Source: an uncultured bacterium (GTDB taxonomy: Bacteria; Bacteroidota; Bacteroidia; Bacteroidales; Bacteroidaceae). Taken from it: 64,000 nt of DNA. The translations under genes and the position numbers were made by a program. Positions 42,571 through 64,000 of this stretch are shown one piece after another (positions within the stretch are counted from its first letter, which is position 1; each line of letters starts with the position of its first letter). The notes under the pieces are model-generated. The model made no database searches, was not told where the DNA came from, and saw nothing but the letters and a program-made list of their open reading frames with translations. The stretch spans positions 12,956-76,955 of the forward strand of contig CAMNOK010000001.1 of NCBI GenBank assembly GCA_946546825.1, written 5' to 3'.

Positions 42571-42610
42571 TTCTTCCCCGCCCTATAGGGAGGGGTCGGG
42601 AGAGGGCCTT
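42571..42610. repeat. GC-rich REP-like hairpin with a G-rich tail
   Basis: tccccgccc-tata-gggagggg-tcgggagagggcctt; related copy at 47249-47287. Confidence 0.6.
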
Positions 42611-48001: not shown

Positions 48002-48020
48002 CGTCTTTCTCTTTACACCG

Positions 48021-48052
48021 CAAAAGTACAACATCCGGTTGAAACTTCCAAA
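48021..48052 (-). promoter_or_regulatory. Promoter of the GH3 pseudogene
   Basis: Minus strand TTTG (48052-48049), 20-nt spacer, TACTTTTG (48028-48021). Confidence 0.65.
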
Positions 48053-48228
48053 TCTTCCGAATAGTTTGTGCAAAAAACACTGACTAAAGCAGTACTTACA
48101 AGGCCGCTAATGGACAACGGACACAAAACGCGAAGATCCCGACGGTGGTCAGAACGACACAGCGTCGGGAACTTCTCTGTTGAGCATCAGAGCCGCAAGT
48201 CTTTTGCGGCCATAAGTCACCTGAAGGC

Positions 48229-49761
48229 TTAGCGAATACGCAGGGGAGCTTTGGATCTGGCTGCTTTCAACCTCATTGGACGGGCCTGAACAGGGTAATT
48301 TTCATCAATATACTCCACATTGTTGTAAGTCACACCGTCCAACACTCTCGAATAGACGGCAACATAGAGCGAGGTATCGCCCTTGCGGTAGTAGGTCAGC
48401 GCACTGATGTTCGGGTCCTCACTGTCATATGTATCATAGTAAGTATAGCCCATTGATTGCACATAGGTCTTCAGGTTGTTTAAGCTGGCAACTTCGGGAT
48501 CGAAATAGTAAAGGATATAGTTGAGCTTTCCTTCATCGGAGAAGACGAAGAAGATATTTTCAGCGAGTAATTTTCCACCATACATGAGAAAGTGTGTTTC
48601 CTCTGTTTCCTCTGATTCAAGCGTATAGCCAAGGTTTGACATAATGTTCTTCACATCAGTGGCCCCAGACTGTCCGATGACGACGGGGAACTCTTCATAG
48701 AGCGAGACCGATATAGGTGTGTAAGAAACCCACTCATCATTGGTTGCCGGGCCGAAGTATGGGGAATTAGACCGAAGATAGTCCCAATAGGCAAGATAGG
48801 TGTTGCCAGGTGTGAGCGTGGTTGTGAACTCGCCCACCTGAGTAAAGCCTGTGCTGTTTTCCTTCATGTAGCCAAAACAGAGTGTCACATTGTCTTGAAG
48901 AACATAAGTCCAGCCAACGAGGTTCGTACGGAAATAATCCCAACTGGCGTCGAAGTATGAGGGGGCGAAGTTTTGCAGATAATACCACTGGTTGGAAGAG
49001 GTTTCTGAAAAGTAGTTGAACTTGGACGAAGCGTGCGGGTCAATGTTATAGGAGCTGGCTCTTCTTCTGGCATATAGGGACAATTGCCGTATCTGGTTGT
49101 CACCGACCGTGCCAGAGGTAGGACTCTGATACATAAAGTTCTGGAAATAATCGTAGATGATAGCTCCCAGAGGATGTGTAGTGACGTTCAGCTGAGTGGG
49201 CTGAGTAGGGCTGATGGTGACCATGTCTGTAGAGGTGGAGATGATGTTCCACCGGTCTAAGGTCTTAGGACTCCTTTCGCTATAGGATGTCGGCACCAGC
49301 TCACAGGTTGACAGCCTATCGAAGTTACGCAGGTTGCAGCGAGGATGAAAAGCTGCAGAGTTGGACCTATTGGCATTGGCAAAGTTCAGTATGGTCACAG
49401 CATAGTAGGTGCCGGGGCGAAGGTTTGCCGTTGCGGTAATTCGGTTAGAGGAGGAAACAAACTTCTTGATGGAATCTACAAGTTCCTCGGTTTGTGCATC
49501 GTAGAGCAAGACACGCGCCTCGATACACATATCGTGTTCCGAAAAGAAGGTACGATAATGCTCAGACAACTGCGTGATGTCGTGAGCATTGTCTTCAAAG
49601 GTATAACTGGAATACAGTTCTTGTGGATTAATCTGAACGGTCAGAGCGTTTTGAATGACGGCAGAGGTGACTTCAATAGGTATCTCGTCGTTGGAACAAG
49701 AAGTAAACGCTCCCACAAAAAGAGTGGCAAGAGCCAGAATGGAATATTTGATGGTTTTCAT
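48229..49761 (-). CDS. Lipoprotein, possibly fimbrillin/type V pilin-like; last gene of the kinase cluster
   Basis: Start re-assigned to MKTIKYS (49761); lipobox FTSC-SNDE; RVLLYD...LRPGTYYAV..NFAN resembles Mfa/Fim-type N-terminal domains (weak). Confidence 0.65.
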   Translation of the reverse strand: MKTIKYSILALATLFVGAFTSCSNDEIPIEVTSAVIQNALTVQINPQELYSSYTFEDNAHDITQLSEHYRTFFSEHDMCIEARVLLYDAQTEELVDSIKKFVSSSNRITATANLRPGTYYAVTILNFANANRSNSAAFHPRCNLRNFDRLSTCELVPTSYSERSPKTLDRWNIISTSTDMVTISPTQPTQLNVTTHPLGAIIYDYFQNFMYQSPTSGTVGDNQIRQLSLYARRRASSYNIDPHASSKFNYFSETSSNQWYYLQNFAPSYFDASWDYFRTNLVGWTYVLQDNVTLCFGYMKENSTGFTQVGEFTTTLTPGNTYLAYWDYLRSNSPYFGPATNDEWVSYTPISVSLYEEFPVVIGQSGATDVKNIMSNLGYTLESEETEETHFLMYGGKLLAENIFFVFSDEGKLNYILYYFDPEVASLNNLKTYVQSMGYTYYDTYDSEDPNISALTYYRKGDTSLYVAVYSRVLDGVTYNNVEYIDENYPVQARPMRLKAARSKAPLRIR

Positions 49762-49783
49762 AATGATATCTTTTCTGTAAATG

Positions 49784-50473
49784 TTAGAAATCGGCGACAT
49801 TGAAAAGGTAAGCGACAGAGACCTCGAAGGAATTCATCTTACAAGGAAAGTTCTTGGCCAGCTTGCAGGTGCCCAGATAGTAACGAGCATTGATGTCGAA
49901 GCCCACGTTGGGGACCGTATAGCCAAGGCCCACAATCCCTCTGACGTCAAAACCCTTGAGCTCGCCTGTGTGATAAGTAAATTCAGAATAGAGCGCAGGA
50001 TTGGTAACTGTGAGTTCACTTGGGCTCTTAGACAGTGTGCCAGCGAAGGCTGCACCAAGCTCAACATAAAGCGGATTAACGCCGCTCATGTGAGCAAGAG
50101 GATAAATCTGAGCCAGCACGGGAACCTCAAAATAACTGATGGTGAGGTCTTTGTCAGCAGTTGTTTTGACCTTGTTCTGCTTGTATTTCAATTCCAAAGC
50201 GACTCCAAACAGGCCTGTGCCAGCGACAGAGTTCTCCGTTGCACGTCCAAAACGAGTCTTGGCCTGAAGACCACCGGAGAGTCCCAGCCCATTACCATCA
50301 TAGAGATCGACCTCCTTGGGCTGTGTCATGGAGGTGAAAGTAACACCCACCTTCGGACCAACGAACAAGACATTGTTCTTTTCTTTCACCGTCTCATCGA
50401 AATCCGTGCTTTGAGCATAGATCGGAATCAGGTTGAATGAGATTAGTACTAATAATAAGATTTTTTTCATCAT
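49784..50473 (-). CDS. Small outer-membrane beta-barrel (porin/PorT-like family)
   Basis: Signal peptide; VGPKVGVTF, YFEVPVLA, INARYYLG and terminal FEVSVAYLF strands. Confidence 0.8.
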   Translation of the reverse strand: MMKKILLLVLISFNLIPIYAQSTDFDETVKEKNNVLFVGPKVGVTFTSMTQPKEVDLYDGNGLGLSGGLQAKTRFGRATENSVAGTGLFGVALELKYKQNKVKTTADKDLTISYFEVPVLAQIYPLAHMSGVNPLYVELGAAFAGTLSKSPSELTVTNPALYSEFTYHTGELKGFDVRGIVGLGYTVPNVGFDINARYYLGTCKLAKNFPCKMNSFEVSVAYLFNVADF

Positions 50474-50509
50474 AGATACATATTTGATTGGTTAATTTTT
50501 GCTATTGAC

Positions 50510-52024
50510 TTAATAGAACGGACGAAGCGTGAGTCCCTCCTGGGTGGCAGAGCCACCCTTGTCCGTGGTGACTGTGACCGACTGGTTGGAGTAGTCCTTG
50601 CTCTTGACCACAAAGTAGCCCTTAACACTTCGGCTGCCGTTGGCCGGAATGGTGACGGTCAGAGTCTCGTTGTGGAATGTTTCGCTGCCATGCAGGTGCA
50701 CTTTGGTGGTAACTTCTTCTGCATTGGGATTGACAATCGTTGCCGTCACATAGACGCGGTCATCCTCGTCGGCCTGCGTACCGTGAACGGTGAGGCTGCA
50801 ACGAAGCCTGACTTCCTGCTTCTTGAAGAAGTATGAGATCTCACCGGCCCAGAGTTTCAGTCCTTCGGCAAATGCCATCACATCATAGACCTGTTCAGCA
50901 GAGGACGGCACAATGGAGAAACTGTATTGCTCTCCACTTTCCTGCAGAGCCATCTGCTCACCGTTTGTCCGGCTGATGACCGCGATTCTGACATGCTCGG
51001 ATTGCCATACGCCGGGCCGTTCGAGGCTGAAGGCACAGGTGACGCTACGTCCCGGGGCATAGACCAAATGGTTTTGAGGAACGCTGAGAGTAAAGTTACC
51101 CGGCTCCCTACCATACTTCAGCAGGCCCGCTTTTCCCTTCAAGACAACTGCGGCATAACCGTCTTCAAAGGGAGTGGCGGCCGAAAACTGGCAAGGGAGG
51201 ATGAGGATACCGTTTTCACGGTAGCCGTAGAGACCGTCTTGAGAAAAGGGTGAGGGTCCTATCTGGCGGGGTTCGGTATCGGCCCAGTCATTGAAGTGAG
51301 GCGTCTTGCCACGCTTAGTAATACAGGAAAAGCATGAAAGATAATCCAACTGAAACGAGCTGGGTTTGCCGACAGAGACGCATTTCCGGGTCTTCACGTC
51401 ATAGGTGTAGAACTTTCCGTCAGCATCTTTCACATAGGCTTTCCCCTTATAGACATTGGTTCCACTCCACACCTCGCCCACTCCAATAATGATCTGGGCA
51501 CGATGGCCAGACTTGTCTATCAGAGCGTATCGCTTGTTGCGGAACACGGCTGCGTAACCTTCGGCAAAAGGTTTGATGACGTCGAACTTACCATCAAACC
51601 CTAACACAGGCTGGCCTTCTTCATCTATGTAGCCGGCCTTACCAGCACCGTTGGCAACGGAAAGCATTCCATCGGAATAGAAAGCCTGTCCGAGCAACGT
51701 GTAGTATTTCTGTGTCAGTGGGGTAAACTGCCCACGGTCGGAAAGGATACCGAGTATGCGCATACGTTCTTTCTCTTTCTTCAGCACCAATGCCTTATGT
51801 TCACGGAAACCGGTCAGCTCATCGTATGCCATAGGAACAACGGGTGTTCCGTCGGCATGTATCAACAGCGTTTCACCGGCTTTCGTTGCCTGATATACAT
51901 CCACAGCCACACGCTTCAGCTGAGTGAAGCCTTGCGACGGTGAAATCTGCCACACAGCGGTCTGAGCCTCAACGTAAGAGGCAACGGAAAGTGCGACAAG
52001 AAGGAAGAAAATGATTTTACGCAT
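50510..52024 (-). CDS. Exported WG-repeat protein with a C-terminal Ig-like domain
   Basis: Signal peptide; repeats GKAGYIDEEG, PFAEGYAAV...YALIDKSG, GLYGY...PFEDGYAAV. Confidence 0.8.
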   Translation of the reverse strand: MRKIIFFLLVALSVASYVEAQTAVWQISPSQGFTQLKRVAVDVYQATKAGETLLIHADGTPVVPMAYDELTGFREHKALVLKKEKERMRILGILSDRGQFTPLTQKYYTLLGQAFYSDGMLSVANGAGKAGYIDEEGQPVLGFDGKFDVIKPFAEGYAAVFRNKRYALIDKSGHRAQIIIGVGEVWSGTNVYKGKAYVKDADGKFYTYDVKTRKCVSVGKPSSFQLDYLSCFSCITKRGKTPHFNDWADTEPRQIGPSPFSQDGLYGYRENGILILPCQFSAATPFEDGYAAVVLKGKAGLLKYGREPGNFTLSVPQNHLVYAPGRSVTCAFSLERPGVWQSEHVRIAVISRTNGEQMALQESGEQYSFSIVPSSAEQVYDVMAFAEGLKLWAGEISYFFKKQEVRLRCSLTVHGTQADEDDRVYVTATIVNPNAEEVTTKVHLHGSETFHNETLTVTIPANGSRSVKGYFVVKSKDYSNQSVTVTTDKGGSATQEGLTLRPFY

Positions 52025-52039
52025 GAGTGGAGCACAAGG

Positions 52040-52687
52040 TTACAGGTTGATATTCAGGTCTTCCAAGATGCCTAAGCCCTTTTTCTTCTTCTCTTGATTT
52101 ACGATAAGGTTGACCTCTTTCTTACCACACACTATCGTGATGATACCAGAACGCTTCGTATAGGTGGTATTTTCAGTTACTTCCACTGAGATTTTGTTCT
52201 CGGCCCGATAAACAGTGACCCAGTCGGGATGGTCTGTCACTTTCCAATCATTATAGTTACACTTCACATCCACACTCTGCTGGCCAGTCTTGGGCTTGGC
52301 CTTGAAATCCAAGACGTTTGATGAAAGGCTGAGGCGGACGTCACCACGGGTTTCAACAATTTCTTCCTTAACCTCATTATTCTTTTCTTCTACTTCTTTT
52401 TTCTCAGTCACAGGTCTTTTTGCCCTGTTCTTGCCGGCAGAGAGTCTCTTAATATTCTCTCGGCAAATAACAATCTGATTGTCACACATCTTTTTCTTCT
52501 CTGCTGCCGTATAGACAATTTTGGCTGCCTGGAACTTCTTGATGGCTCCTTTCTGCGATGATACGTTCATCACTTTCTGCATCTGCTGTCCCTCCAAGAA
52601 TAGCTTATCACCATTGGATTGAGCCATCGCTTCTACAGAAAAAAGGAGAAGCAGGCTACACACAATTGCACTGATTACTCTTTTCAT
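52040..52687 (-). CDS. Exported protein with a helical N-terminus and a C-terminal BACON-like domain
   Basis: Signal peptide; W.V...PDWVTV...ISVEVTENT...RSGIITI.....VNLIVNQ BACON pattern. Confidence 0.8.
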   Translation of the reverse strand: MKRVISAIVCSLLLLFSVEAMAQSNGDKLFLEGQQMQKVMNVSSQKGAIKKFQAAKIVYTAAEKKKMCDNQIVICRENIKRLSAGKNRAKRPVTEKKEVEEKNNEVKEEIVETRGDVRLSLSSNVLDFKAKPKTGQQSVDVKCNYNDWKVTDHPDWVTVYRAENKISVEVTENTTYTKRSGIITIVCGKKEVNLIVNQEKKKKGLGILEDLNINL

Positions 52688-52759
52688 ATTTACTTTATTC
52701 TTTTTATTGACTTCAGTAACTTGACGAACTGCTTAGATAAGATGTAGTCCACTATTCTA

Positions 52760-54247
52760 CTATCTTTCTTTTTTTTTTATATTTTCCAGTGTTTTGCTCA
52801 TCTGGGACTGCTTCTTCTGCAGTTCCACCTTTGTCAGGAAATCTTGGACCTCCAATTGTCTCTTCTTATATGACGCCGCTAAATCCGGCATATCCAAGTC
52901 TTCGAGTTCCTTGGTCTGAACTCCGAACTGGTTCAAGGCAGTGGTCAACAACATTATAATCTCTCTCTTCTTTACATCTACGTCAGGTAACGTCACTTCA
53001 TACATTTTTGCTTGCTGAGCTTTCTTACCAATGTTCTCGTAAGCGGTATAGGCCTTCATCAAAGCCTGCTCATAATTGTCGGCCTCAGTATCCTTTCCGG
53101 CCTCCAACAACTGTCCAGCTTCATCGGATAAAGATTTCAGTGAAGAAGCGAACTCTACCTTCTGCTGTTCATAGCGGGCCATCTCCGCTTCATGTCTTTT
53201 GTTCTCACGCTCTTTATTAAACAACAGCAGAGCACCCCCAAGGATGATGACAAGACCGACGACAGCCGCAATCATGGTGTACTTGAGTTGTGAAGATATC
53301 GGCTTTTTGCCCGCATTCATGGTCTCTAAGGCAACACGCATCTGGGCAGAAGTCTGGTATCTGAGATCTTGCTTCTTCTCACACGCTATGGCAATAATAT
53401 GCCTGAGATTTTTATTCTTGATGACGTTGAGCGGCATCTTGGCCTTTAACTGCTTTTCAAGAATTTCATGACGGGCTCCTTCAAATGGTGTATGACCGAC
53501 AATACATTGGTAAAGCAAGATTCCCATAGCATAGATATCTGTGGTCTGGTTCTGATGTTTGATGTCGCCTAAAGCCAGTTCCGGGGCGGCATACTCCGGC
53601 TTACCCATGAACTTTCCGGCAACAGTCAACGACTTGTCATTTGTTGTTAAGCTATTCATCTGCTTAGCAATGCCAAAGTCAATGAGCTTGATATGGCCAT
53701 CTGATGTAACCATAATGTTCGACGGATCAATATCGCGGTGGATGTAGCCGGCATCATGAAGCGCCATCAAACCTGACAGAATATTCATCACAATGACACG
53801 GGCAAAATGCTCAGGGTCGTTCTTATAGTCTTGCAACAGCTTCACTGCATAAGGGACTTCCTCTCCCGTGCGATCTACGGTCTTTCCATCCAAGATGTCG
53901 GATAACGATACTCCTGTCAGCAGTTCGCTGACCACATGGTAATGTTTCTTCACCCCTCCCAATGCGTCACGCTCTTCCGTCTCGATGAAACCAAGCATCT
54001 CAACGAGATTATCATTACGCAGTTGGATAGAAGCTTCTCTGCGTGCACGTTCTATAGCATTTGCGGGGAGATCTTCATACATGAACTTGATGGCAACAGG
54101 TCGAGTCGCACCTGTACGCTCATCTACACAAAGGCCCTTGAATACCTGACCCATACCGCCTACTCCTATCGGCTCTTCAGCAGAGTCGAGTTGATAAAAT
54201 ACACGTTTTCTCTTTTCGGCTTCTCCCTGTAATCTAATCAGTGACAT
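52760..54247 (-). CDS. Membrane-anchored Hanks-type protein kinase, atypical HRDIDPSN/GKPEY variant
   Basis: GVGGMGQV, VAIK, REASI, HRDIDPSN, DFG and GKPEYAAPE; one TM followed by a helical C-terminal domain. Confidence 0.93.
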   Translation of the reverse strand: MSLIRLQGEAEKRKRVFYQLDSAEEPIGVGGMGQVFKGLCVDERTGATRPVAIKFMYEDLPANAIERARREASIQLRNDNLVEMLGFIETEERDALGGVKKHYHVVSELLTGVSLSDILDGKTVDRTGEEVPYAVKLLQDYKNDPEHFARVIVMNILSGLMALHDAGYIHRDIDPSNIMVTSDGHIKLIDFGIAKQMNSLTTNDKSLTVAGKFMGKPEYAAPELALGDIKHQNQTTDIYAMGILLYQCIVGHTPFEGARHEILEKQLKAKMPLNVIKNKNLRHIIAIACEKKQDLRYQTSAQMRVALETMNAGKKPISSQLKYTMIAAVVGLVIILGGALLLFNKERENKRHEAEMARYEQQKVEFASSLKSLSDEAGQLLEAGKDTEADNYEQALMKAYTAYENIGKKAQQAKMYEVTLPDVDVKKREIIMLLTTALNQFGVQTKELEDLDMPDLAASYKKRQLEVQDFLTKVELQKKQSQMSKTLENIKKKER

Positions 54248-54260
54248 CTTTGAATATTTT

Positions 54261-55787
54261 TTAAAGTTTTTTCTTCAATTCTTCTGCTATTGTTTTCATC
54301 TTCTTTAAATGCTCTTTGGCTGAATCCGTTGCTCTGTATTTCTTTGTCTTTGTATCGATGCTAATAACGGCCGCCGGCGATTGAGTTTTTCCCTTATTGG
54401 TCATTACACCACGGATGCCATTAGTTTTGGACTGGAATCTCCTGTTGGTCTTGTTGTCGAACTCATCCAACAAAGAAAGAATCTTTTTCTGATGGTCTGT
54501 GATTTGTTTATTAACTTTCTTCACATCAACTCCACTGATAGTCATCATTTGATTCAAACTGTTGATAATCTGATCAATGTCATTTTTAGCTCCGGATGAA
54601 GACGTTGCAGATTTAGCCGAGGCATAGTTCTGAGGTCTGTTAGTGGCTACTATCGGCTGAGATGATGGCTGAGATGGAGCCTGGACCTGCTTCTCTGAAG
54701 CTTCGGTGAGTTTCTGAGTCAGCGTAGAAACTTCTTCTTCTAATTCTTTAATCTTCATGCGAAGATTGTCGTTTTCGTCGGTCAAAACTTTCACTGCAGA
54801 GGTAAAGTCGGCCGAGCCCTCAGTGAAAATTTTGTTATAACGCGATTCTATTGCCTTGAGCCGTGTGTATTTTGCCTTGTCGATGGCAATTGTATTTTCT
54901 TCTACAGGCTTGGGACGAGTGAGCATACTTGCTATATTGAACAGAAGACTTATTGCGAGAAGTGCTGACAATGCAGCGAAAACAATTCTTAAGTGTTTAC
55001 TCATTTTGTCTTTTAGAAGAGAGTTGGTATTCGTTTCTATTATAATTATAGTATGATTATCGTGATAACCTCCTGACGCATTGCCTATCTTATCTGTTTC
55101 ATCTTGTAACTGAAGAACAAGATTTTCTATAGGGTAATGGGCGGCAAAGCGAGTGAGGAGGTCTTCATGTTGCATGATGCCCCACACGCCATCCGTACAG
55201 AGTATAAAGCGGTCACCCCGCAAATATGGCACTTCCGCAATTTCTGGATTATGGTTGCTGGTATTACCAAGCCCTCGAGTGATGATGTTTGACTGTGGCG
55301 ATGTGCGGGCCTGCTCTTCTGTAAGCGTCTTATTGCGAACGAGTTCTCCGACCAATGAATGGTCAGCAGTTCTGAAGAACACTTTCTTACCACACATACG
55401 ATAGCAACGGCTGTCACCGAGATGAGCGACGAAAGCTGCTTGCCGAGTGAAGAGTACAGCAACAAGAGTTGAACCCATGCCTTGCAGCGACGGCACCTCC
55501 TGCATCTTCATAAAGAGTGCATCATTGGCTTTGGCAATGGCAATCTTCATGGCTTCTTGAGGAGAAACTGTCGGTTCAAATCCCTGCAACGTCTCCATAA
55601 AGACAAACTTGGCGATGTAGGAAGCGGTCTTTCCACCAGGTCCACCACCCATGCCGTCACAGACAACAGCCAAAAAGCCGAGTGGGGTCTCAACGAAACC
55701 ATAGTCGTCTTGATTTTCAGGACGGCCGCCTTGGCGAGTGTCTGCGACACCTTTCAACTGATATGCTGGTGACTGAAAATGTTCCAT
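54261..55787 (-). CDS. Membrane-anchored PP2C/PPM Ser/Thr phosphatase with a C-terminal coiled coil
   Basis: RPENQD, VCDGMGG, HLGDSR, DHS, CTDGVW and HDNHT; TM IVFAALSALLAISLLFNIA. Confidence 0.93.
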   Translation of the reverse strand: MEHFQSPAYQLKGVADTRQGGRPENQDDYGFVETPLGFLAVVCDGMGGGPGGKTASYIAKFVFMETLQGFEPTVSPQEAMKIAIAKANDALFMKMQEVPSLQGMGSTLVAVLFTRQAAFVAHLGDSRCYRMCGKKVFFRTADHSLVGELVRNKTLTEEQARTSPQSNIITRGLGNTSNHNPEIAEVPYLRGDRFILCTDGVWGIMQHEDLLTRFAAHYPIENLVLQLQDETDKIGNASGGYHDNHTIIIIETNTNSLLKDKMSKHLRIVFAALSALLAISLLFNIASMLTRPKPVEENTIAIDKAKYTRLKAIESRYNKIFTEGSADFTSAVKVLTDENDNLRMKIKELEEEVSTLTQKLTEASEKQVQAPSQPSSQPIVATNRPQNYASAKSATSSSGAKNDIDQIINSLNQMMTISGVDVKKVNKQITDHQKKILSLLDEFDNKTNRRFQSKTNGIRGVMTNKGKTQSPAAVISIDTKTKKYRATDSAKEHLKKMKTIAEELKKKL

Positions 55788-55812
55788 GCTTGGATATTAC
55801 ATGTTTTCGATT

Positions 55813-56451
55813 CTACAATGAGATCAGAACTCCCCAGAACGCAAATAACACAAACGACAAAACAATAACATTAAGGATAAAAATAGCTATACCCCACATG
55901 TCCCAACTGTGCTGTGTTTCTTCGAAGTCTATCACACTATTCCACCTTCTGTTCTCCCATGCCAGGCTGTAGCCGTATATACCAAAGATGAAAGCTGGAA
56001 TAATAGCCCATCCAAAAAAGAAGAATACCAGTATCGCCCACCAACACCCGTTGAAGAACCCCCAAAGGGGATACAACATAAAAGCTCCCCAACTCCATTT
56101 AGAGAGATCCGGACCTGATTCGGACTCTGACACTGGACTCGTTTCATCAGATACAGTACCATTATAGTGTGGCGGCTGTGCTACTGTTGAGGGGAAAAAA
56201 GCGTCAATTTGATTCCAATTGACTTGATATTTCCCTGCGAGCATAATGATATCTCCTCGGCGGATAGGTACAGATCTATGCTTAACACTGACATTATTAA
56301 TCATTGTACCATTGGTGCTGGTATCCTTATACATTAACTGTTGGCCATCGTAGAAGATTGTGCCGTGATATTTACTTGCGTACTGACAACGCGGGTCAAG
56401 ATAAATGTCGCAATCTTTGGAACGACCTATCGTTACTTCTCTTAACAACAT
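55813..56451 (-). CDS. FHA domain fused to a multi-pass membrane domain (DUF2628-like)
   Basis: IGR..CDI...SKYH...STNGT (FHA); WSWGAF...LAWENRRW...Q..W membrane module. Confidence 0.85.
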   Translation of the reverse strand: MLLREVTIGRSKDCDIYLDPRCQYASKYHGTIFYDGQQLMYKDTSTNGTMINNVSVKHRSVPIRRGDIIMLAGKYQVNWNQIDAFFPSTVAQPPHYNGTVSDETSPVSESESGPDLSKWSWGAFMLYPLWGFFNGCWWAILVFFFFGWAIIPAFIFGIYGYSLAWENRRWNSVIDFEETQHSWDMWGIAIFILNVIVLSFVLFAFWGVLISL

Positions 56452-56464
56452 AATTCAAAATGCT

Positions 56465-57706
56465 TTATTCAACATTAAATGGAATCGATATATGCCGCTT
56501 GGTGTCATAAAGAGCATAAGTGCCAGTCTGTTTAATGACAAAGACGACTATCGTATTGCCATTAACACTGGTCTCTTCGCTCTTTGGTTCGATAGCGTTC
56601 AACAAGCTCTTGTAGCTAATACTTGTATTGTCTTTCAATTCAACCAACTTGAAGGCGTTCTCCCCATCAATAGATGAATTCTTGAATTGCAAGACCATCT
56701 CCAGGCTCTTGTCATCTTCCTTGGTGAATTTGGGAATAGAATCGCCATCAAAGCTCTCCAGTTCGATACTACTGTCACCTTCTGTTGCATTCACAGCCAG
56801 CATTTCTTTGCCATTCAACAGAATCTGGCCTGGCTCCAGCACGACATCAATCTTTCCCTGATACTGAGGATTTTTCTCCTTCTCAACACCTGTTACTCTA
56901 TTCAGATAAATCTTGCGCTGATTACCATTTTCTTCTTCAATCACCAGGAAGTATTCTGATTCGGTGTTGCCGCCATAGTTTTGCTCAATAATGATGCCTT
57001 TCACGGTCTCACCACCTTTTATTTTCACGATATCCAAGAGCGGACTGTGAAGGAAGATGCTCTGCTTGGGATTCAATGGCTTCACGGTATATCTCACGAC
57101 ATCATTGAGGCTGAAGGTTTCCAACATCCCATTACTGAGGTAAAGACTCAGGGTACTGTCAGTTTCCTCTGCATATTGTCCTTCTATCACATCACCATCG
57201 TTCAGCTCATATACTCGGTCTATACCGGTGAGTGCAAGTTTAGGGCGCTTGTCGGACTTGATGGCTACGACGTCTTTCCATTTGATGTCGTAAACGCTGG
57301 GCGTCAGTTCCATGTACTTTACCCTGGTGCCATTTTCCAAAAGCCTTACGCCATCAACAGATTCCATGCCATATATAGGCTGACGGAATTCAATGTTATG
57401 GAGAAGGAGAAAACTGTCAGTTCCCTGAACGGTGTAGGCGTCATTTTTCTTTGCCCATTCCTTCCAAGAAGCTTGCAGTTTGGAAATGTCGTGTTTCTTC
57501 TCAAAGACATTGATAACAAGTTTACCGTCCAAAGAAATGACAGCATTATCCGAATGGAAGACAATGATATTACTGTTAATATCTTGTCTTTCAATAAACC
57601 CGTTCAAGACAGAACCATTCTTTAGGATGATTCTTTGAACAGATGCCGCCTTAGCCGTTCCGAGAACGGCTAAGGTCAGCATGAGGATAGATAATATCTT
57701 TTTCAT
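56465..57706 (-). CDS. Exported hypothetical protein with three small beta-domain repeats
   Basis: Signal peptide; IILKNGSVLNGFIERQ, YELNDGDVIEGQYAEE and VKIKGGETVKGIIIEQ repeats. Confidence 0.7.
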   Translation of the reverse strand: MKKILSILMLTLAVLGTAKAASVQRIILKNGSVLNGFIERQDINSNIIVFHSDNAVISLDGKLVINVFEKKHDISKLQASWKEWAKKNDAYTVQGTDSFLLLHNIEFRQPIYGMESVDGVRLLENGTRVKYMELTPSVYDIKWKDVVAIKSDKRPKLALTGIDRVYELNDGDVIEGQYAEETDSTLSLYLSNGMLETFSLNDVVRYTVKPLNPKQSIFLHSPLLDIVKIKGGETVKGIIIEQNYGGNTESEYFLVIEEENGNQRKIYLNRVTGVEKEKNPQYQGKIDVVLEPGQILLNGKEMLAVNATEGDSSIELESFDGDSIPKFTKEDDKSLEMVLQFKNSSIDGENAFKLVELKDNTSISYKSLLNAIEPKSEETSVNGNTIVVFVIKQTGTYALYDTKRHISIPFNVE

Positions 57707-57722
57707 TATGACTTCTGTTTAA

Positions 57723-59351
57723 TTAATCTCTTGCCTTATTTTTATCATACAATTCCTTCAAATGCTTAATGTTACAAGCATAAGCGACATCAGTTCCTCT
57801 GTGACTTGCATTAATAACTCCTACAAGACGAAAATTCTTATCAATGACAGGTGAGCCGCTTTGACCGCCGACCACATTGCTTTGAAGCTGGAACATGTTG
57901 TCATCGGGGCGTTTACTGATATAAGTACGATGGACGGTCGGCAAGAATTCAGTACCTTTAGATATAATTCTCACATTAGTATTGTATTCTGCCGGGTAGC
58001 CAATGGTTGTCAGCTCATCTTCTTGTGGATTAAGAGAGAGTTCATCAGTGCGCGCCTTCTCGATATCAAAGAAGCCACCCTTCACGATTTCATCCGGCGT
58101 CTTCTTGGAATTCAGACGAATCAATGCAACATCCTTGAACTCATCACCACTTTCAGCAATAACTTGGCATGAGTGCAAATCAGCGATTGTAGTAAAGTTG
58201 GTTCCTGTTAAAGCGATGCCGAGATACTCAAAGCTTCCTGACAATTCATAATCTGACTTCTGAATTCTTGACAGCCATGCATCAATATTCTTTAAATCGG
58301 TAATTGTTTGGGCATAGTCACTTTGTGTAGCTGTTTTACTGAGATATTTAGATACAAAGGCATTTTTTACCTGTGTACTTAATGCCTGCGTTATACTATT
58401 TGCCTTTTCTGTTATAGACACAACAATCTGCTGACGTATATTATCTTTTAAGTCATTACTGATATAGTTCCACGGACATGCTATATGTCTGTTTGTACCC
58501 AACTCTCCTTTCTCTGAAATAAAGAAAGCCGTTCCTCGCGCTTCAAGCGGTGAAACTTTTATATCTTCATTCGGCCAGTTGGTTGCAAGGGTTACTTTAC
58601 CATCCTGAACGCCGAATGTCCATTTAGTAGGCCAATCCTTAATTTTACCAATGAATGGGTCATCCTTAATAGTGACTTCTATATAATACCTTTCAAACAC
58701 GCAAGTAGTGGCAGCCTGTAGAGATTTCAAAGAAGGGTGCGGGTCCGGGAAAAATATTGCCGCGATGGCAATCAACAGGAAGCAAGCAGCTGTACCGAGG
58801 ATATATTTCCACACAGGTGTAGGAATCATCTTCCAGACACGGTCCAACTCTGCCTTTGGAACAGGAACGCCACCACACACGATGGAACTCTTACGATTTA
58901 ACCGATAGGGATTATTTGGCGTAATCTTTGAACCGTTAACGGTAGTACCGTTTTTACTATGGTCAACGATATACACTTTATTATCTCTGCTTACTTTGAT
59001 AGTAGCATGATAACGACTTACTGTTGATCCGTTCAACGAGATATCATTGTTGAAGTTCTTTCCAATGTTAAAGATTGCTTTGTAGGCAGAATTGTCTTCT
59101 GGACGAGGAACCTGACTCCACTGTAACTCTGTGTCTGCAAAACGAATGGTATCGCCATATTTCACATTGACAGGTTGCCCAGGTTTAATAGGCTGGTTCA
59201 TCACAAATGTTCCATTGCGACTTCCCTTATCTTCCAACAGGATGTCACCGCTGTCCATTAACACCAATTCGGCATGAACAGAACTAACCTTTTCACTATA
59301 CAATACGATGTCGCAGTTCTTCGGATCACGACCAATTTTTAGTAGTCTCAT
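57723..59351 (-). CDS. FHA-FHA-TM-trypsin-like serine protease
   Basis: Two FHA motifs (IGR..SSVH..SRNGT; IGK..SRYH..SKNGT), one TM, then triad motifs TNRHIA, DVALIRL and GQSGSP. Confidence 0.9.
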   Translation of the reverse strand: MRLLKIGRDPKNCDIVLYSEKVSSVHAELVLMDSGDILLEDKGSRNGTFVMNQPIKPGQPVNVKYGDTIRFADTELQWSQVPRPEDNSAYKAIFNIGKNFNNDISLNGSTVSRYHATIKVSRDNKVYIVDHSKNGTTVNGSKITPNNPYRLNRKSSIVCGGVPVPKAELDRVWKMIPTPVWKYILGTAACFLLIAIAAIFFPDPHPSLKSLQAATTCVFERYYIEVTIKDDPFIGKIKDWPTKWTFGVQDGKVTLATNWPNEDIKVSPLEARGTAFFISEKGELGTNRHIACPWNYISNDLKDNIRQQIVVSITEKANSITQALSTQVKNAFVSKYLSKTATQSDYAQTITDLKNIDAWLSRIQKSDYELSGSFEYLGIALTGTNFTTIADLHSCQVIAESGDEFKDVALIRLNSKKTPDEIVKGGFFDIEKARTDELSLNPQEDELTTIGYPAEYNTNVRIISKGTEFLPTVHRTYISKRPDDNMFQLQSNVVGGQSGSPVIDKNFRLVGVINASHRGTDVAYACNIKHLKELYDKNKARD

Positions 59352-59369
59352 ATCTTTAGGTTTTTAAAA

Positions 59370-60026
59370 TTATCCACGAATTCTTTTCTTATCCTTTGAG
59401 GATTTCTTTAACTTATCTCCTTGTTCAACAGAAGTTTTTTGCTCATTGTTTTCAACTTTCTTCTCATCAATCTTCTTTACATTGTCTTTTGCTTTAGGCT
59501 TCTGAGAGCCGTGGTTTGAAGATACATGATGGCCGCGTCTGGCATGGGCTCGGTTGATTGAATCCTCGACATGCTTTCTGATAGAATCACGCTTTTGTTC
59601 TTCTATCTGTTTTAATTGATTTTCCTGCTGTTTGACAGCCGCTGTGTCAACGACTGGGATGACATCTTGACTGGAGTTACTTCCTCTAAACATTGTAAAA
59701 GAGATGACAGCACCTATAATAACTGCAAGCACAGCAAGTCCAACAAGAGAGAACTTAAGAATTTTTGCTCCTGTATTGGGCACGAGCTTCCAGTCTAACC
59801 TGGCCACATGTGCAAATGACACGTTATCCTTACGTGATACAGGGAATGGAACATTGGGGGAAATACGCATACCATTGACATAAGTTCCATTCTGACTCAG
59901 GTCAATTATGGTCATTTTTCCTGTTGACGTCACGTTCAGTGTTGCATGACGGCGGCTGACGACGTTGGAAAGATCGTTGATAACAATATCGCAGCCAGCT
60001 TCTCGTCCGATTGAATAGACTTTCAT
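59370..60026 (-). CDS. FHA domain protein with one TM and a charged C-terminal tail
   Basis: IGRE..CDI...VSRRHA...SQNGT; TM FSLVGLAVLAVIIGAVISF. Confidence 0.88.
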   Translation of the reverse strand: MKVYSIGREAGCDIVINDLSNVVSRRHATLNVTSTGKMTIIDLSQNGTYVNGMRISPNVPFPVSRKDNVSFAHVARLDWKLVPNTGAKILKFSLVGLAVLAVIIGAVISFTMFRGSNSSQDVIPVVDTAAVKQQENQLKQIEEQKRDSIRKHVEDSINRAHARRGHHVSSNHGSQKPKAKDNVKKIDEKKVENNEQKTSVEQGDKLKKSSKDKKRIRG

Positions 60027-60041
60027 AATATGTTTATTGTT

Positions 60042-61064
60042 TTATTTTAGTACTTTTTGTGCTTTATTGATTTTCTCGTTCAGTTTGACGATGGAACTAT
60101 TTTTCTCTTGAATGATTTGTTGATTCGTAGAATCCTTCTTCTTCAAAGACTCTACTTGTGCTTTTAGACCTGCCACATCTGTCGCCAACGCGATGTTTAG
60201 CACAATACTGATTGCACACACTGCCGCAAGGCTGAGCAGAATAATTTTTATTTTCTTTGACATATTGGGCTTAAGTTTTGAATTAATTTTTGTATCAACG
60301 ATTATTAGCGTCAAATTATCATGTCCTCCTCCATTTCTTCTTCCCGTATCATCGGCAGTGGTTGCTATATTGTCGCATACAGCACCGAGAGAAGATTTGC
60401 GATTGGTAGCCAACCTGATGAGGTCGCGTTCGGGCATGATTCCGTGAATCCCATCACTACACAACAAAAAACGATCTCCCTTCTCATAAGCAACTTCTTT
60501 CACTTCTACCTCTACATCAGGCGTGATGCCTAATGCTCTAGTAATGACATTGGACTCGGCAGATAGGCGTGCCTGTTCCTCAGTAATCAATCCCTGTTTT
60601 ACCAAATCAAAGACTACAGAATGGTCAAAGGTACGAAATATCTTCCTCTTTCCCCGAAATTGATAGACGCGACTATCTCCTACATGAGCCACAAATGCCG
60701 ACTGAGGAGAAAGGAGCAAAACTGTAGCAGTTGAACCCATACCCTTAAAAGCAGGATTTTCATTACCATACGAGATTATTGCCATGTTTGCCCTGCGAAT
60801 GGATTTGATTATAATATTAGGAATCTCTTCATCGGGTTCAGCTTCTTTGATACCAGTAATGATTTCCTGAACAGCTATAGTAGAAGCCGTTTTACCACCA
60901 GGACCACCTCCCATGCCATCGCATACTGTAAAGAGAAAGCCAAAAGGGGTTTCCAAGGCTCCATAAGAGTCTTGATTCTCTTGTCTTCCACCAATACGAG
61001 ACTCAGCGAATCCTATGAAGAAATCTTTATCTGATTTATGCAGTTGTTTGAGTTCCAATTCCAT
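60042..61064 (-). CDS. Membrane-anchored PP2C/PPM Ser/Thr phosphatase
   Basis: RQENQD, VCDGMGG, HVGDSR, DHS, CSDGIH and HDNLT; TM then a short coiled coil. Confidence 0.93.
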   Translation of the reverse strand: MELELKQLHKSDKDFFIGFAESRIGGRQENQDSYGALETPFGFLFTVCDGMGGGPGGKTASTIAVQEIITGIKEAEPDEEIPNIIIKSIRRANMAIISYGNENPAFKGMGSTATVLLLSPQSAFVAHVGDSRVYQFRGKRKIFRTFDHSVVFDLVKQGLITEEQARLSAESNVITRALGITPDVEVEVKEVAYEKGDRFLLCSDGIHGIMPERDLIRLATNRKSSLGAVCDNIATTADDTGRRNGGGHDNLTLIIVDTKINSKLKPNMSKKIKIILLSLAAVCAISIVLNIALATDVAGLKAQVESLKKKDSTNQQIIQEKNSSIVKLNEKINKAQKVLK

Positions 61065-61077
61065 AACAAAAGAATTT

Positions 61078-62076
61078 TTATAGTAGAATGATAATAATGA
61101 AGAAGATAATTACCGTAAGAGTTAGTACTCCTGCAAAAATGGCGATAGGATGTTCTTTAATCCATTGTGATAGCTGCTCAAATGGTGACGGGTCTGGCAA
61201 CAAAGCATTTTGAATAGCTTGCTTGAAATCAAGCGCTGTCTGATAGCGTCGGCTTTGCTCCTTTTCCGTGGCCTTCCATATCACTTGCATCAACTTTTTG
61301 GGAATCATATCACTTGAAGGAAGGCGGTCTTTCATCTGTCTTTTCAATGTTTCTGCCTCTGTTTCACAAGACATTGGATTCTTTCCTGTCAACAGTTCAT
61401 AGAAAGTGATTCCCAGTTCATAGATATCTGTTGTAGCATTGATTTGAACTTCTCCTCTGTTTTGTTCTCTCAGCATTTGTTCGGGAGCAGAGTATTCTGG
61501 CGTGCCAATGAATCCATAAGACGAGAACTGGTTTCCTCCATTCATGCGAGAGATGCCGAGATCCATCAGACGGACATTTGACCCATTCTCTATCATTATA
61601 TTAGACGGCTTGATGTCACGGTGAATAACTCCGCGTGAATGAACATAGTCAAGGGCATCAAGAACAGAGCAGATTGCTCTACAAATCTTCTCTACCCGTT
61701 CAGGATGTTCTGCAAAATTCTTCACATACTTGTCAATATTCTCTCCCTGTACAAAATGGCTCAATATGAAAATAGGGCCATTATCTGGAGCATACTCGCA
61801 ATAGCCAATCATTTCCACAAGATTGGGATGTCTAAAAGCGAGCGATGCCTCTTGTCGCGCGCGCTCGCGAATCATTCTATTATTAGCATAGGCATCAAGA
61901 ACTCTTTTTACGGCTATTATAGACCCTGTCTTGCATCTGTACCCTCTATACACTTCTCCCATTGCGCCACTGCCAATAGGTGGCTCCGAAGGATTGTAGC
62001 AATACCACTCCCCCATGACATATAGGTAAATGTATGGATCGTTTTTCCGCCTGACTACTGTTTGCATGGTATTCAA
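61078..62076 (-). CDS. Hanks-type Ser/Thr kinase with a C-terminal membrane anchor (canonical catalytic loop)
   Basis: GSGAMGEV, IAVK, HRDIKPSN, DLG and GTPEYSAPE; terminal TM. Confidence 0.93.
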   Translation of the reverse strand: MNTMQTVVRRKNDPYIYLYVMGEWYCYNPSEPPIGSGAMGEVYRGYRCKTGSIIAVKRVLDAYANNRMIRERARQEASLAFRHPNLVEMIGYCEYAPDNGPIFILSHFVQGENIDKYVKNFAEHPERVEKICRAICSVLDALDYVHSRGVIHRDIKPSNIMIENGSNVRLMDLGISRMNGGNQFSSYGFIGTPEYSAPEQMLREQNRGEVQINATTDIYELGITFYELLTGKNPMSCETEAETLKRQMKDRLPSSDMIPKKLMQVIWKATEKEQSRRYQTALDFKQAIQNALLPDPSPFEQLSQWIKEHPIAIFAGVLTLTVIIFFIIIILL

Positions 62077-62083
62077 TTTTTAG

Positions 62084-63679
62084 TTATCGAACAATATTCT
62101 CGAGCTTTTGAATATTCGTATTGATGCTCCTTACAAACTCATGGTCTTCAGCCTCTTTAGCATATTTGCCTGCTTCCCTGAAGAGTTTCAATGCCTCTGC
62201 CAGATTCCTCTTGTATTCACTTGCCCTACTACTTCCGCCATAAAAGTCACAACCAAGCTCGTAAAGAGCTTTATAGTTTGAAGAATCTTGCCTAACAGCC
62301 AGCAGAAGAAGTTCCTGCGCCTTCTTGTTATTGATACTTAACTCTGCATTGTTTCTCATTTCGATGATTGAGTCAGGGCAAAAGTCCTGAGCAGCAAGGC
62401 TTTTGAAATAGAGTCTGCTTAATAGATAGGAAGCTTCTGAATTTCCAGACTCAGAGAGGGCTAAAAGTTCCATTATACCATCTGAAGCAGATTCTTTTTT
62501 ATAAAGTCTTGATACAGCTTGGGCATAAGCATCTATAACATGATTTGCAGATTGGGAATCAGATTCATGATTTGTCACTTCTGCTACGAGTTGTGGATGA
62601 GGAGGCTGAGAGGGTGGTTTAAGTTGTTTCCAGCCCACTACAATGACACTGATGGCAATAACAACAGCTGCTATATATTCAACATACTTAAGCGGAACAC
62701 TATCATCCCACCAATGGCCGTTATTACTTAACGGAGTTGGTAGGTGGTCAATGGCAACTCTGAATTCTGCTGCACTGGCATAGCGCTTCTCTCTTGACTT
62801 TTCTACAGCCTTTGCAATGATTTTGCGAATATGCTTATTTTTGATGAGATGAAGAGGTGGCTTCTTATGTATCTGCATGTGAAGCACAGCCTGCTTATCG
62901 CCCTCAAAGGGGGGGTGGCCAACGATACATTGAAACAACAAGATACCAACAGCGTAGATATCTGTTGTCTGGTTTTGATGGCCGATGTCTCCAAGAACGA
63001 GTTCGGGTGCAGCATACTCTGGCTTTCCAATAAATGCACCAGCATTTGTGAGTGACTTGTCGTGGCTTGTCAGCGATCGAAGCTGCTTAGCTATGCCGAA
63101 ATCAATCAGCTTGACGTGTCCGTCACTGGTAATCATGATGTTGGTTGGATCAATGTCACGATGTATATAGCCCGCATCATGAAGGGCCATCAAGCCGGAA
63201 AGAACACTTCTTATTATGTAAACGGCAAAATGATTAACGTCTCTCTGATAGTCATTATATAACTTTTGTGCAAAGGGCATGATTCTTCCAGTTCTGTCAA
63301 CGATGCGCCCCTGAAGCAGGTCATCAAGCATGATACCTTCCAAAAGTTCACTGACAACATGATAATGTTTTCGGACTTCTCCAATGACATTTTTCTCTTC
63401 AGTCTCAATGAAGCCCAACATCTCAACAAGATTCTCATGTTTTATTTGAATAGAAGCTTCTCTACGGGCACGTTCTATCGTTTGAGGAGCTTGCCACTGA
63501 AGTTCGTCAAACATGAACTTTACAGCAACAAGTTTTCTGCTGTGCGTGTTTTCATCAACACACCAGCCTTTATACACCTTACCCATGCCGCCCACGCCGA
63601 GGGGTTCTTCTGCTGAATCAAATTCATAGAAGATGCCTCTGCGTTTTTCGGCTTTACCTTGTAGTCTGTATAACGACAT
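62084..63679 (-). CDS. Membrane-anchored Hanks-type kinase, atypical HRDIDPTN/GKPEY variant, with a Sel1/TPR-like C-terminal domain
   Basis: GVGGMGKV, VAVK, HRDIDPTN, DFG and GKPEYAAPE; TM; GNSEASYLLSRLY and KALYELGCDFY..EALKLFREA Sel1-like helices. Confidence 0.93.
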   Translation of the reverse strand: MSLYRLQGKAEKRRGIFYEFDSAEEPLGVGGMGKVYKGWCVDENTHSRKLVAVKFMFDELQWQAPQTIERARREASIQIKHENLVEMLGFIETEEKNVIGEVRKHYHVVSELLEGIMLDDLLQGRIVDRTGRIMPFAQKLYNDYQRDVNHFAVYIIRSVLSGLMALHDAGYIHRDIDPTNIMITSDGHVKLIDFGIAKQLRSLTSHDKSLTNAGAFIGKPEYAAPELVLGDIGHQNQTTDIYAVGILLFQCIVGHPPFEGDKQAVLHMQIHKKPPLHLIKNKHIRKIIAKAVEKSREKRYASAAEFRVAIDHLPTPLSNNGHWWDDSVPLKYVEYIAAVVIAISVIVVGWKQLKPPSQPPHPQLVAEVTNHESDSQSANHVIDAYAQAVSRLYKKESASDGIMELLALSESGNSEASYLLSRLYFKSLAAQDFCPDSIIEMRNNAELSINNKKAQELLLLAVRQDSSNYKALYELGCDFYGGSSRASEYKRNLAEALKLFREAGKYAKEAEDHEFVRSINTNIQKLENIVR

Positions 63680-63697
63680 AGACGCTAAAAAGTCAAA

Positions 63698-64000
63698 TTA
63701 CATCCCAATCGTTCCGCCCTTGTTATTTCCCAAAGTTCCGTCCAATCCTACCGTTCCAGGACTTGGGGTGAAGGGAGAGTTGCCAACTGACGACTGAGAG
63801 CCGAACGGTTGGAATGACTCGCCTGGTTTGGTAAAGCCTGGAGGAATGGAACCATTATAATCAAGGATTTCGTCTTCAGCATCTTCACTAACCTCTGTTC
63901 CGATAAATTTATCTGAAACATGTAGTCCAAGTGCTGCTGTATCTATAAGTACAAGGAACAACTCATAGTTATCACCAATAGTGATAATATCACCGTTTTG
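63698..64000 (-). CDS. Partial gene (5' end outside window), probable FHA-domain protein with a Pro/Gly/Thr-rich tail
   Basis: The frame is open to the window edge: QNGDIITIGDNYELFLVLID resembles the last strands of an FHA domain. Confidence 0.65.
   Translation of the reverse strand, partial: QNGDIITIGDNYELFLVLIDTAALGLHVSDKFIGTEVSEDAEDEILDYNGSIPPGFTKPGESFQPFGSQSSVGNSPFTPSPGTVGLDGTLGNNKGGTIGM

What the first reader, a model, noticed from the sequence alone, without database searches (positions are those of the whole stretch)
48229..64000. Candidate undescribed trans-envelope phospho-signalling system: 3 Hanks kinases, 2 PP2C phosphatases, 4 FHA proteins, a protease and an outer-membrane module in one apparent operon
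Seen: at least 14 co-oriented genes with gaps of 7-72 nt, continuing past the window edge. Transcription order: FHA (partial), kinase-TM-Sel1, kinase-TM, PP2C-TM, FHA-TM, FHA-FHA-TM-trypsin, exported repeat protein, FHA-membrane domain, PP2C-TM-coil, kinase-TM-helical, BACON protein, WG-repeat protein, OM barrel, lipoprotein. Every complete writer, eraser and reader has a TM segment after its signalling domain, and the downstream genes are exported. Much of 52-64 kb looks more AT-rich than the housekeeping genes. Established: kinase-PPM-FHA triads control Pseudomonas T6SS (PpkA/PppA/Fha1) and mycobacterial wall synthesis (PknA/PknB/PstP/FhaA/FhaB), but no T6SS or division genes are present here, and Bacteroidales signalling is mostly described through HTCS and ECF systems. 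Inference: an accessory surface-to-cytoplasm circuit that senses contact, envelope damage or phage and switches a periplasmic protease or surface structure. I do not know of a characterised equivalent.
Basis: partly seen in the sequence, partly recalled or inferred. Interest (0 to 1): 0.9.

Follow-up and report, generated by a model that had tools for sequence, protein, structure and literature searches.

The report
Gut-bacterial kinase switchboard across the envelope
A conserved 14-gene cluster of gut and rumen Prevotella-like bacteria encodes protein kinases, phosphatases, phospho-threonine readers and a protease predicted to sit in the inner membrane beside periplasmic and surface proteins; it likely relays surface contact into the cell, and in one lineage it lies in the same locus as a type VI secretion weapon in which the usual membrane-anchor genes were not found.

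Summary
Real. The 14 co-oriented genes begin just past the window edge with a soluble FHA protein behind a conserved hairpin leader; no T6SS, Ter or mobility genes lie upstream. The cassette occurs in 19 of 400 family genomes with a fixed core order. 13 of the 19 have no TssC, so it is mostly stand-alone. In 3 of 19, and in 18 of 22 metagenome loci (4 too short), it adjoins a divergent T6SSiii without detectable TssN/O/R. The window's copy lies outside that lineage. New anatomy: kinases K1/K3 carry a Lys-to-Asp catalytic-loop change paired with a Thr-to-Lys change (25 of 45 kinases), the first FHA has invariant Thr tails, the protease triad is invariant, the last lipoprotein has a type V pilin fold. 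Best reading (0.55): a threonine-phosphorylation envelope-sensing platform working like TagQRST-PpkA-Fha1, whose stand-alone output is likely a periplasmic protease. Nine literature searches found no description. The scan reported this family before on other genomes (e1-3892252, e1-3936728). Function is untested.

The parts
63698..64000 (-). FHA1, first gene (260 aa, completes outside the window at contig C1:77435): soluble FHA with disordered tails carrying conserved Thr motifs (T6, T243 invariant; T257 nearly); likely kinase substrate and hub
62084..63679 (-). K1, Hanks kinase-TM(330-348)-variable helical periplasmic domain; atypical HRDIDP + GKPEY motifs
61078..62067 (-). K2, canonical Hanks kinase (HRDIKP + GTPEY) with C-terminal TM and no periplasmic domain
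60042..61064 (-). PP2C-A phosphatase-TM; NQD, CDGMGG, CSDG and GGHDN motifs intact
59370..60026 (-). FHA-TM-charged periplasmic tail
57723..59351 (-). FHA-FHA-TM-trypsin-like serine protease; H289/D407/S498 invariant in 15 of 15 aligned orthologues
56465..57706 (-). F3, exported hallmark protein without Pfam hit; predicted Sm-like barrel repeats plus Ig-like C-terminal domain (best Z 6.2-6.4, modest)
55813..56451 (-). FHA plus C-terminal membrane domain
54261..55787 (-). PP2C-B phosphatase-TM-coiled coil
52760..54247 (-). K3, atypical kinase (HRDIDP + GKPEY)-TM-helical periplasmic domain
52040..52687 (-). Exported helical + BACON protein; directly follows a K3-type kinase in 4 of 4 loci that carry it
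50510..52024 (-). Exported WG-repeat protein
49784..50473 (-). Outer-membrane beta-barrel (OMP_b-brl_2)
48229..49761 (-). Lipoprotein whose N-terminal two domains have the Bacteroidia type V pilin/adhesin fold (Foldseek E 1.5e-9; Z 12.0, rmsd 4.6, 245 aligned)

Best explanation
This is a conserved, mostly stand-alone accessory cassette of gut Bacteroidaceae that likely works as a threonine-phosphorylation switch across the cell envelope, relaying a surface cue to a membrane platform of FHA proteins and a periplasmic protease. Steps: (1, inferred) the pilin-fold lipoprotein and outer-membrane barrel register contact or damage. (2, inferred; weak model support) periplasmic WG, BACON and F3 proteins bind and cluster the variable periplasmic domains of K1 and K3. 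(3, motifs shown, activity inferred) the atypical K1/K3 and canonical K2 phosphorylate the Thr tails of the soluble FHA1. (4, inferred) pThr-FHA contacts gather the TM-anchored FHA proteins and switch on the FHA-FHA-TM-trypsin protease in the periplasm. (5, motifs shown) two membrane PP2Cs reset the switch. In one lineage the cassette shares a locus with a T6SSiii in which TssN/O/R were not found; there it would trigger, and perhaps anchor, the weapon. The window's copy belongs to the T6SS-free lineages.
For: Core order FHA1-K1-K2-PP2C-FHA.TM-FHA2.trypsin is exact in the window and 12 of 18 fetched relatives; F3 is in 17 of 18. PP2C motifs are kept across the 26 PP2Cs listed except the last GxxDN in 6; the protease triad is invariant in 15 of 15; FHA1 Thr motifs are invariant. 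Cytoplasmic kinase domains are 52-78% identical and periplasmic domains 20-39%, as expected of sensors. K3 periplasmic domain + BACON protein: weak support, score 0.55, best control 0.01. That mark was reached by 116 of 157 solved and 2 of 215 mismatched pairs, but at 0.60 or under by only 18 of 157 and by both mismatches; the runs agree in at least 0% of contacts; partner pLDDT is at least 70. No TssC in 13 of 19 carriers, 11 of them at least 90% complete. T6SS-free copies form several deep lineages. The T6SS backbone also exists without this cassette in a sister clade. The analogy rests on TagQ/TagR clustering PpkA, which phosphorylates Fha1 (PMC13713981, abstract; PMC13584744, passages).
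Against: No stimulus, substrate or phenotype was measured. The tree roots are unresolved, so T6SS-linked ancestry with later loss is not excluded. G163 falls inside the T6SS-linked lineage by the protease tree and G351 by the kinase tree, yet both lack TssC and TssD hits; both contigs end in the cassette. The window's genome is only 62% complete. K1 is absent from G259 and G456, so it is dispensable. The D/K-swapped kinases could be inactive.
Confidence: 0.55

Rival explanations
1. The cassette is by origin the regulatory/anchoring half of a TssN-less T6SSiii. The window's copy is an orphan left after loss of the tube genes, or it serves a T6SS missing from this incomplete assembly.
For: Fused to ClpV-TssB-TssC-TssD-VgrG-DUF4280-TssG-TssK-TssE-TssF in 3 of 19 genomes and in 18 of 22 metagenome loci. 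A TssR homologue and an ABC transporter are inserted in the cassette in 2 of 19. The same leader heads the cassettes and sister T6SS operons. G163 and G351 may be recent losses.
Against: 13 of 19 carriers lack TssC, and the 3 unlinked TssCs are canonical and distant. Stand-alone copies are intact at 32-50% protease identity and spread over deep branches. No TssB/C/D/VgrG hit in the own assembly.
Confidence: 0.2
2. It is an anti-phage or abortive conflict system: phage adsorption or a phage protein activates the kinases, and the protease is a self-damaging effector.
For: Patchy, low-GC accessory locus; fast-evolving periplasmic domains; a terminator-like leader that suggests inducible expression; the kinase domains match defence kinases such as PD-T4-6 and Mad6.
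Against: The PADLOC matches cover only the generic kinase, PP2C and trypsin domains. Flanks are housekeeping or metabolic genes rather than defence islands in the loci I inspected. Two phosphatases imply reversible signalling.
Confidence: 0.13
3. It is a phosphorylation-gated adhesin or pilus system: the output is proteolytic maturation or display of the type V pilin-like lipoprotein, controlling aggregation or attachment.
For: Pilin fold. The OMP-lipoprotein pair occurs in 9 of 19 loci (own included), and in 6 of these a C10-, M6- or S41-type peptidase gene follows directly (one representative per family was scanned). Type V pilins mature by Arg/Lys-specific cleavage (recalled).
Against: 10 of 19 loci lack the pair while keeping the core, so it cannot be the general output. 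There is only one pilin-like gene per locus.
Confidence: 0.12

Closest known systems
T6SS threonine-phosphorylation pathway of Pseudomonadota (TagQRST-PpkA-PppA-Fha1)
   Same: Membrane Hanks kinase with periplasmic domain, PP2C phosphatase, FHA substrate with Thr-bearing tail, outer-membrane lipoprotein and periplasmic partner. In one lineage it is linked to a T6SS; in two genomes an ABC transporter is inserted.
   Different: Three kinases (two with swapped catalytic motifs), two TM phosphatases, four FHA proteins and a fused protease. No TagH/PpkA-level family match (TIGR03354 below cut-off). No T6SS in most carriers. Found in Bacteroidota, for which the passages of the 2026 accessory-factor review that I read name only TagA/B/C (PMC13584744).
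Bacteroidota T6SSiii (GA1-GA3; TssNQOPR membrane complex)
   Same: The linked relatives encode TssB/C/D, VgrG, ClpV and TssG/K/E/F homologues.
   Different: No TssN, TssO or TssR hit in G246, G259, G279 (control G379 positive). tssG directly abuts tssK, whereas PMC10781749 section 11 found tssN systematically between them. 'Kinase' and 'FHA' occur 0 times in PMC4714493, PMC10781749 and PMC8102008. The window's own locus has no T6SS genes.
Actinobacterial PknA/PknB-PstP-FhaA/FhaB cluster and the GarA/OdhI phospho-switch (recalled)
   Same: Kinase pair + PPM phosphatase + FHA proteins in one operon; FHA1 resembles an FHA with a phosphorylatable Thr tail.
   Different: No PASTA domains, no RodA/PBP genes; accessory and patchy (19 of 400); NCBIfam PknB/FhaB/OdhI scores are below cut-off.
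Bacteroidia type V pili (FimA/Mfa family)
   Same: The last lipoprotein has the two-domain pilin fold and lies next to an outer-membrane barrel.
   Different: A single pilin-like gene, with an extra C-terminal domain here, embedded in a kinase operon; the Mfa1 profile score is far below cut-off.

Membership tests
T6SS threonine-phosphorylation pathway (TPP) | Membrane Ser/Thr kinase + PP2C + FHA protein encoded together | tested here: met
T6SS threonine-phosphorylation pathway (TPP) | Located in or serving a T6SS locus | tested here: inconclusive
   Not in the window's locus or its 62%-complete genome; met in 3 of 19 relatives, no TssC in 13 of 19
T6SS threonine-phosphorylation pathway (TPP) | TagH/Fha1 or PpkA orthology at curated cut-off | tested here: not met
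   TIGR03354 scores 17-56 bits against cut-off 120
T6SS threonine-phosphorylation pathway (TPP) | Kinase phosphorylates the FHA protein or membrane complex and gates secretion | not testable with these tools
   needs phosphoproteomics and secretion assays
Bacteroidota T6SSiii, canonical (for the linked relatives) | Sheath, tube, spike and baseplate genes | tested here: met
   TssC, TssD, VgrG, DUF4280 by Pfam; TssK and TssF weak NCBIfam hits; TssG by profile comparison
Bacteroidota T6SSiii, canonical (for the linked relatives) | TssNQOPR membrane complex, tssN between tssK and tssG | tested here: not met
   TssN, TssR, TssO: 0 of 3 linked genomes, control positive. TssP query: one partial PKD hit on another contig in G246, none in G259, G279 not searched. 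Very divergent homologues cannot be excluded.
PknB-PstP-FhaA/B cell-wall cluster | PASTA kinase and neighbouring RodA/PBP genes | tested here: not met
   No PASTA hit and no such genes in the locus
Ter stress-response cluster | TerD/TerB/vWA genes in the locus | tested here: not met
   No Ter hit among the locus genes; upstream ORFs were read by eye, not scanned
Known anti-phage systems (PADLOC) | System-specific multi-gene match | tested here: inconclusive
   Only generic kinase, PP2C and trypsin domain matches; 8 of 14 proteins had none
Type V pilin | Lipoprotein with the two-domain pilin fold | tested here: met
   (model mean pLDDT 70)
Type V pilin | Proteolytic maturation and polymerisation by strand exchange | not testable with these tools
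   needs experiment

The most novel reading that the evidence does not exclude
The cassette is a self-contained, phosphorylation-assembled trans-envelope platform built on a new kinase subfamily in which the catalytic-loop lysine has moved to the P+1 loop. It works alone as a contact-triggered protease switch in most gut Bacteroidaceae. In one gut lineage it replaces the TssNQOPR membrane complex as trigger and anchor of a T6SS, defining a new T6SS architecture whose sister clade uses a transmembrane ubiquitin-like (E1/E2/RING/JAB) module instead.
Probability: 0.25. Interest if true: 0.9.

Novelty: new variant of a known kind. Interest (0 to 1): 0.72.

Why it matters
I found no account of Hanks-kinase/FHA signalling in gut Bacteroidales. 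This cassette is a widespread candidate (F3 has 343 clusters at 50% identity with E up to 1e-30) with directly testable parts. Its fusion to a T6SS lacking detectable TssN/O/R challenges the statement that all T6SSiii carry the membrane complex or part of it (PMC10781749, section 11), and offers a route to post-translational T6SS control in gut commensals. The paired K-to-D and T-to-K change is a clean natural experiment in kinase catalysis.

Tried and rejected
Genome-collection scan with the protease alignment: saturated by generic FHA words; 1 of 79 loci matched full length (L051), so it gave no named distribution. The F3 alignment was too variable for that scan. ESM Atlas gave no result for the lipoprotein. 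Foldseek on F3 gave only Ig-like noise, and VIA-align Z values are under 8. No solved kinase matched K1 at E 1e-25. A search with the K3 periplasmic region found only a near-identical protein, so the complex job used a 5-row alignment. Expression: contigs of 4 RNA runs (3 studies) cover 16-26 of 30 bins of the locus, but a neighbouring 20-kb stretch gave 21-26 of 30, so DNA carry-over is not excluded and expression is not shown. Rfam: no family on the leader at gathering (7 loci) or by E-value. FHA1 profile: 0 of 400 phylum-wide genomes at E 1e-15. F3 profile: 2 of 400 order-wide, partial matches only; this means not found in those searched, not absent. The careful IQ-TREE run did not finish (one search is the quick tree; one search is FastTree); no AU test was run. 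Searches (TssN in 5 sister-clade genomes, 0 of 5; TssD, 0 of 5) had no positive genome in the same call; the TssN profile rang on G379. Mobility genes: none recognised next to the window's locus (read by eye). Literature searches without a description of this system: 0 papers; 0; 0. Supplements were not read; Additional file 1 of PMC4714493 (two unclassified T6SS loci) and the supplements of PMC10781749 could contain such loci.
Full report
Observation. The 14 minus-strand genes are as described, with domains confirmed by Pfam. The window is contig C1:12956-76955 of a 1.7-Mb, 62%-complete assembly. Named homologues are Prevotella proteins, and runs that hold the DNA are labelled sheep or bovine gut where labelled. 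The partial FHA gene completes at C1:77435 and is the first gene. It is soluble, whereas all 8 complete kinase, PP2C and FHA genes have a TM after the signalling domain. Upstream I recognised only housekeeping-type ORFs, no T6SS, Ter or mobility genes. The signalling half is 0.425 GC against 0.498 for the genome.

Distribution and order. The K1 kinase domain hit 19 of 400 family genomes at E 1e-30, in 8 of 29 genera. I fetched 18 of these loci and G163 later. The order FHA1-K1-K2-PP2C-FHA.TM-FHA2.trypsin is exact in the window and in 12 of 18. G259 and G456 lack K1, G351 ends at a contig break, G373 and G411 carry a seven-gene insert, and G376 is rearranged. The Pfam-less exported protein F3 is in 17 of 18 and has 343 clusters at 50% identity. 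The subfamily was not found in 400 phylum-wide genomes, and only partially in 2 of 400 order-wide ones. Looser clusters of the same theme exist elsewhere in Bacteroidota.

Link to T6SS. In G246, G259 and G279 the cassette runs into ClpV, TssB, TssC, TssD, VgrG, a DUF4280 protein, TssG, TssK, TssE and TssF homologues and further kinases (TssB and TssE named by position and by similarity to the canonical or sister loci). Of 22 metagenome loci found with that TssC, 17 carry F3, 1 only the WG gene at a contig start, and 4 are under 4 kb; these loci are related and not independent. The three genomes (100, 99, 88% complete) gave no TssN, TssR or TssO hit, while control G379 did, and tssG abuts tssK. 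PMC10781749 (passages and section 11 read) reports tssN systematically between them and the membrane complex, or part of it, in all systems. Yet 13 of 19 carriers have no TssC, and 3 have an unlinked canonical one, against 33 of 400 in the family. In the protease tree (32 rows, quick IQ-TREE) and the F3 tree (33 rows, FastTree) the T6SS-linked copies form one side of a branch (100 and 99), and the window's copy sits among the stand-alone ones. Most T6SS rows (11 of 14 and 15 of 18) were picked by TssC similarity and the root is unresolved, so the direction is not proven. G163 and G351 lie in the linked lineage without TssC or TssD hits, which may be loss or incomplete assembly. A sister T6SS clade has the same backbone without this cassette. 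Cassette and backbone therefore each exist alone, which favours fusion (inference).

Anatomy. Among 45 kinases of the cassette loci, 25 have Asp for the catalytic-loop Lys together with Lys for the Thr of the GT motif, 19 have the canonical Lys/Thr pair, and 1 has Val/Lys. The atypical ones form one clade, so this is one event, not repeated covariation. The Gly loop, beta-3 Lys, alpha-C Glu, catalytic Asp and DFG are intact in K1 and K3. My inference is a lysine supplied from the P+1 loop; a pseudokinase is the alternative. The motif string gave 0 papers. FHA1 has invariant T6 and T243 and near-invariant T257 in repeated tail motifs, like a GarA/OdhI or Fha1 substrate (recalled analogy). The protease triad is invariant in 15 of 15. 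Kinase periplasmic domains diverge fast: 20-39% identity against 52-78% for the kinase domains. F3 folds (pLDDT 86) into Sm-like barrels and an Ig-like domain (Z near 6, modest). The lipoprotein has the type V pilin fold. The BACON gene follows a K3-type kinase in 4 of 4 loci; their predicted complex has weak support (0.55, best control 0.01; see Best explanation for the calibration counts). A conserved hairpin and U-tract leader precedes FHA1 and is shared with sister T6SS operons.

Mechanism. Shown: gene content, order, catalytic motifs, distribution and T6SS linkage in a minority. Predicted: topology and folds. Inferred: a surface or periplasmic cue clusters the kinases, FHA1 is phosphorylated, pThr-FHA contacts assemble a membrane platform that switches on the periplasmic protease, and the PP2Cs reset it. 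This is the logic of TagQ/TagR-PpkA-Fha1 (PMC13713981, abstract; PMC13584744, passages). I give it 0.55; T6SS orphan 0.2, phage defence 0.13, gated adhesin 0.12.

Known or new. It works like the threonine-phosphorylation pathway but fails the orthology test and is mostly T6SS-free. 'Kinase' and 'FHA' occur 0 times in PMC4714493, PMC10781749 and PMC8102008 (term counts and passages). The passages read in PMC7159879 and PMC12419801 concern other systems. Other papers were seen only as search listings, and no supplements were read. Nine searches found no description. The scan itself reported the family on two other genomes. I had reached the T6SS link before reading e1-3892252, and the leader was checked after e1-3936728 pointed to it. 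Verdict: a new variant of a known kind, interest 0.72.

Noticed in passing
contig C1:77530-77646, minus strand (L011:17531-17647), about 600 bases beyond the window edge, ending 95 nt before FHA1: Conserved ~105-nt hairpin followed by a U-tract, with no Rfam match. It heads the cassette in G000, G121, G127, G432, G373 and, via an intervening gene, G351 and L051. It also heads sister-clade T6SS operons (G090, G244, G341, G169) and a kinase-FHA cluster in G399. The intervening gene is NusG-like where scanned (G246, G226). 14 copies: 96% of cells paired, 5 of 23 pairs with changes on both sides. The lead came from e1-3936728. A second copy lies at C39:11513-11612.
   Followed up: partly
L154-L171, L172-L181 (G186, G418, G226, G331, G393, G090, G341, G399, G244): Sister T6SS clade (TssC 51-58% identical to the linked type) with tssG next to tssK and no TssN hit in 0 of 5 tested. 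It carries an E2 (UQ_con), an E1 (ThiF), exported proteins with weak JAB and RING hits, a 108-aa possible ubiquitin-like protein (no Pfam hit), and 3' kinase-WG(-PP2C) genes. This looks like a transmembrane ubiquitin-like system inside a T6SS locus and deserves its own study.
   Followed up: partly
L047-L050 (G373, G411): Seven-gene insert between K1 and K2 with a full-length TssR homologue, a barrel protein and an ABC transporter (FtsX permease), in genomes without TssC: TssR apart from a T6SS.
   Followed up: partly
L051, L057, L185-L186, L188, L026: Looser FHA/PP2C/kinase/trypsin clusters with canonical kinases in a Muribaculaceae MAG, a Chitinophaga MAG and other Bacteroidales families: the theme is wider than this subfamily.
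   Followed up: partly
window 46493-48073: GH3 beta-glucosidase-like ORF with only a short piece of the N-terminal domain (Pfam positions 84-155 of 316); it looks internally deleted.
   Followed up: no
window 42610-46074: 1154-aa exported protein with no Pfam hit and a Prevotella-type C-terminal tail.
   Followed up: no
L019 (G443 K1): The one kinase of the atypical clade with HRDIVP instead of HRDIDP; possibly degenerate.
   Followed up: no
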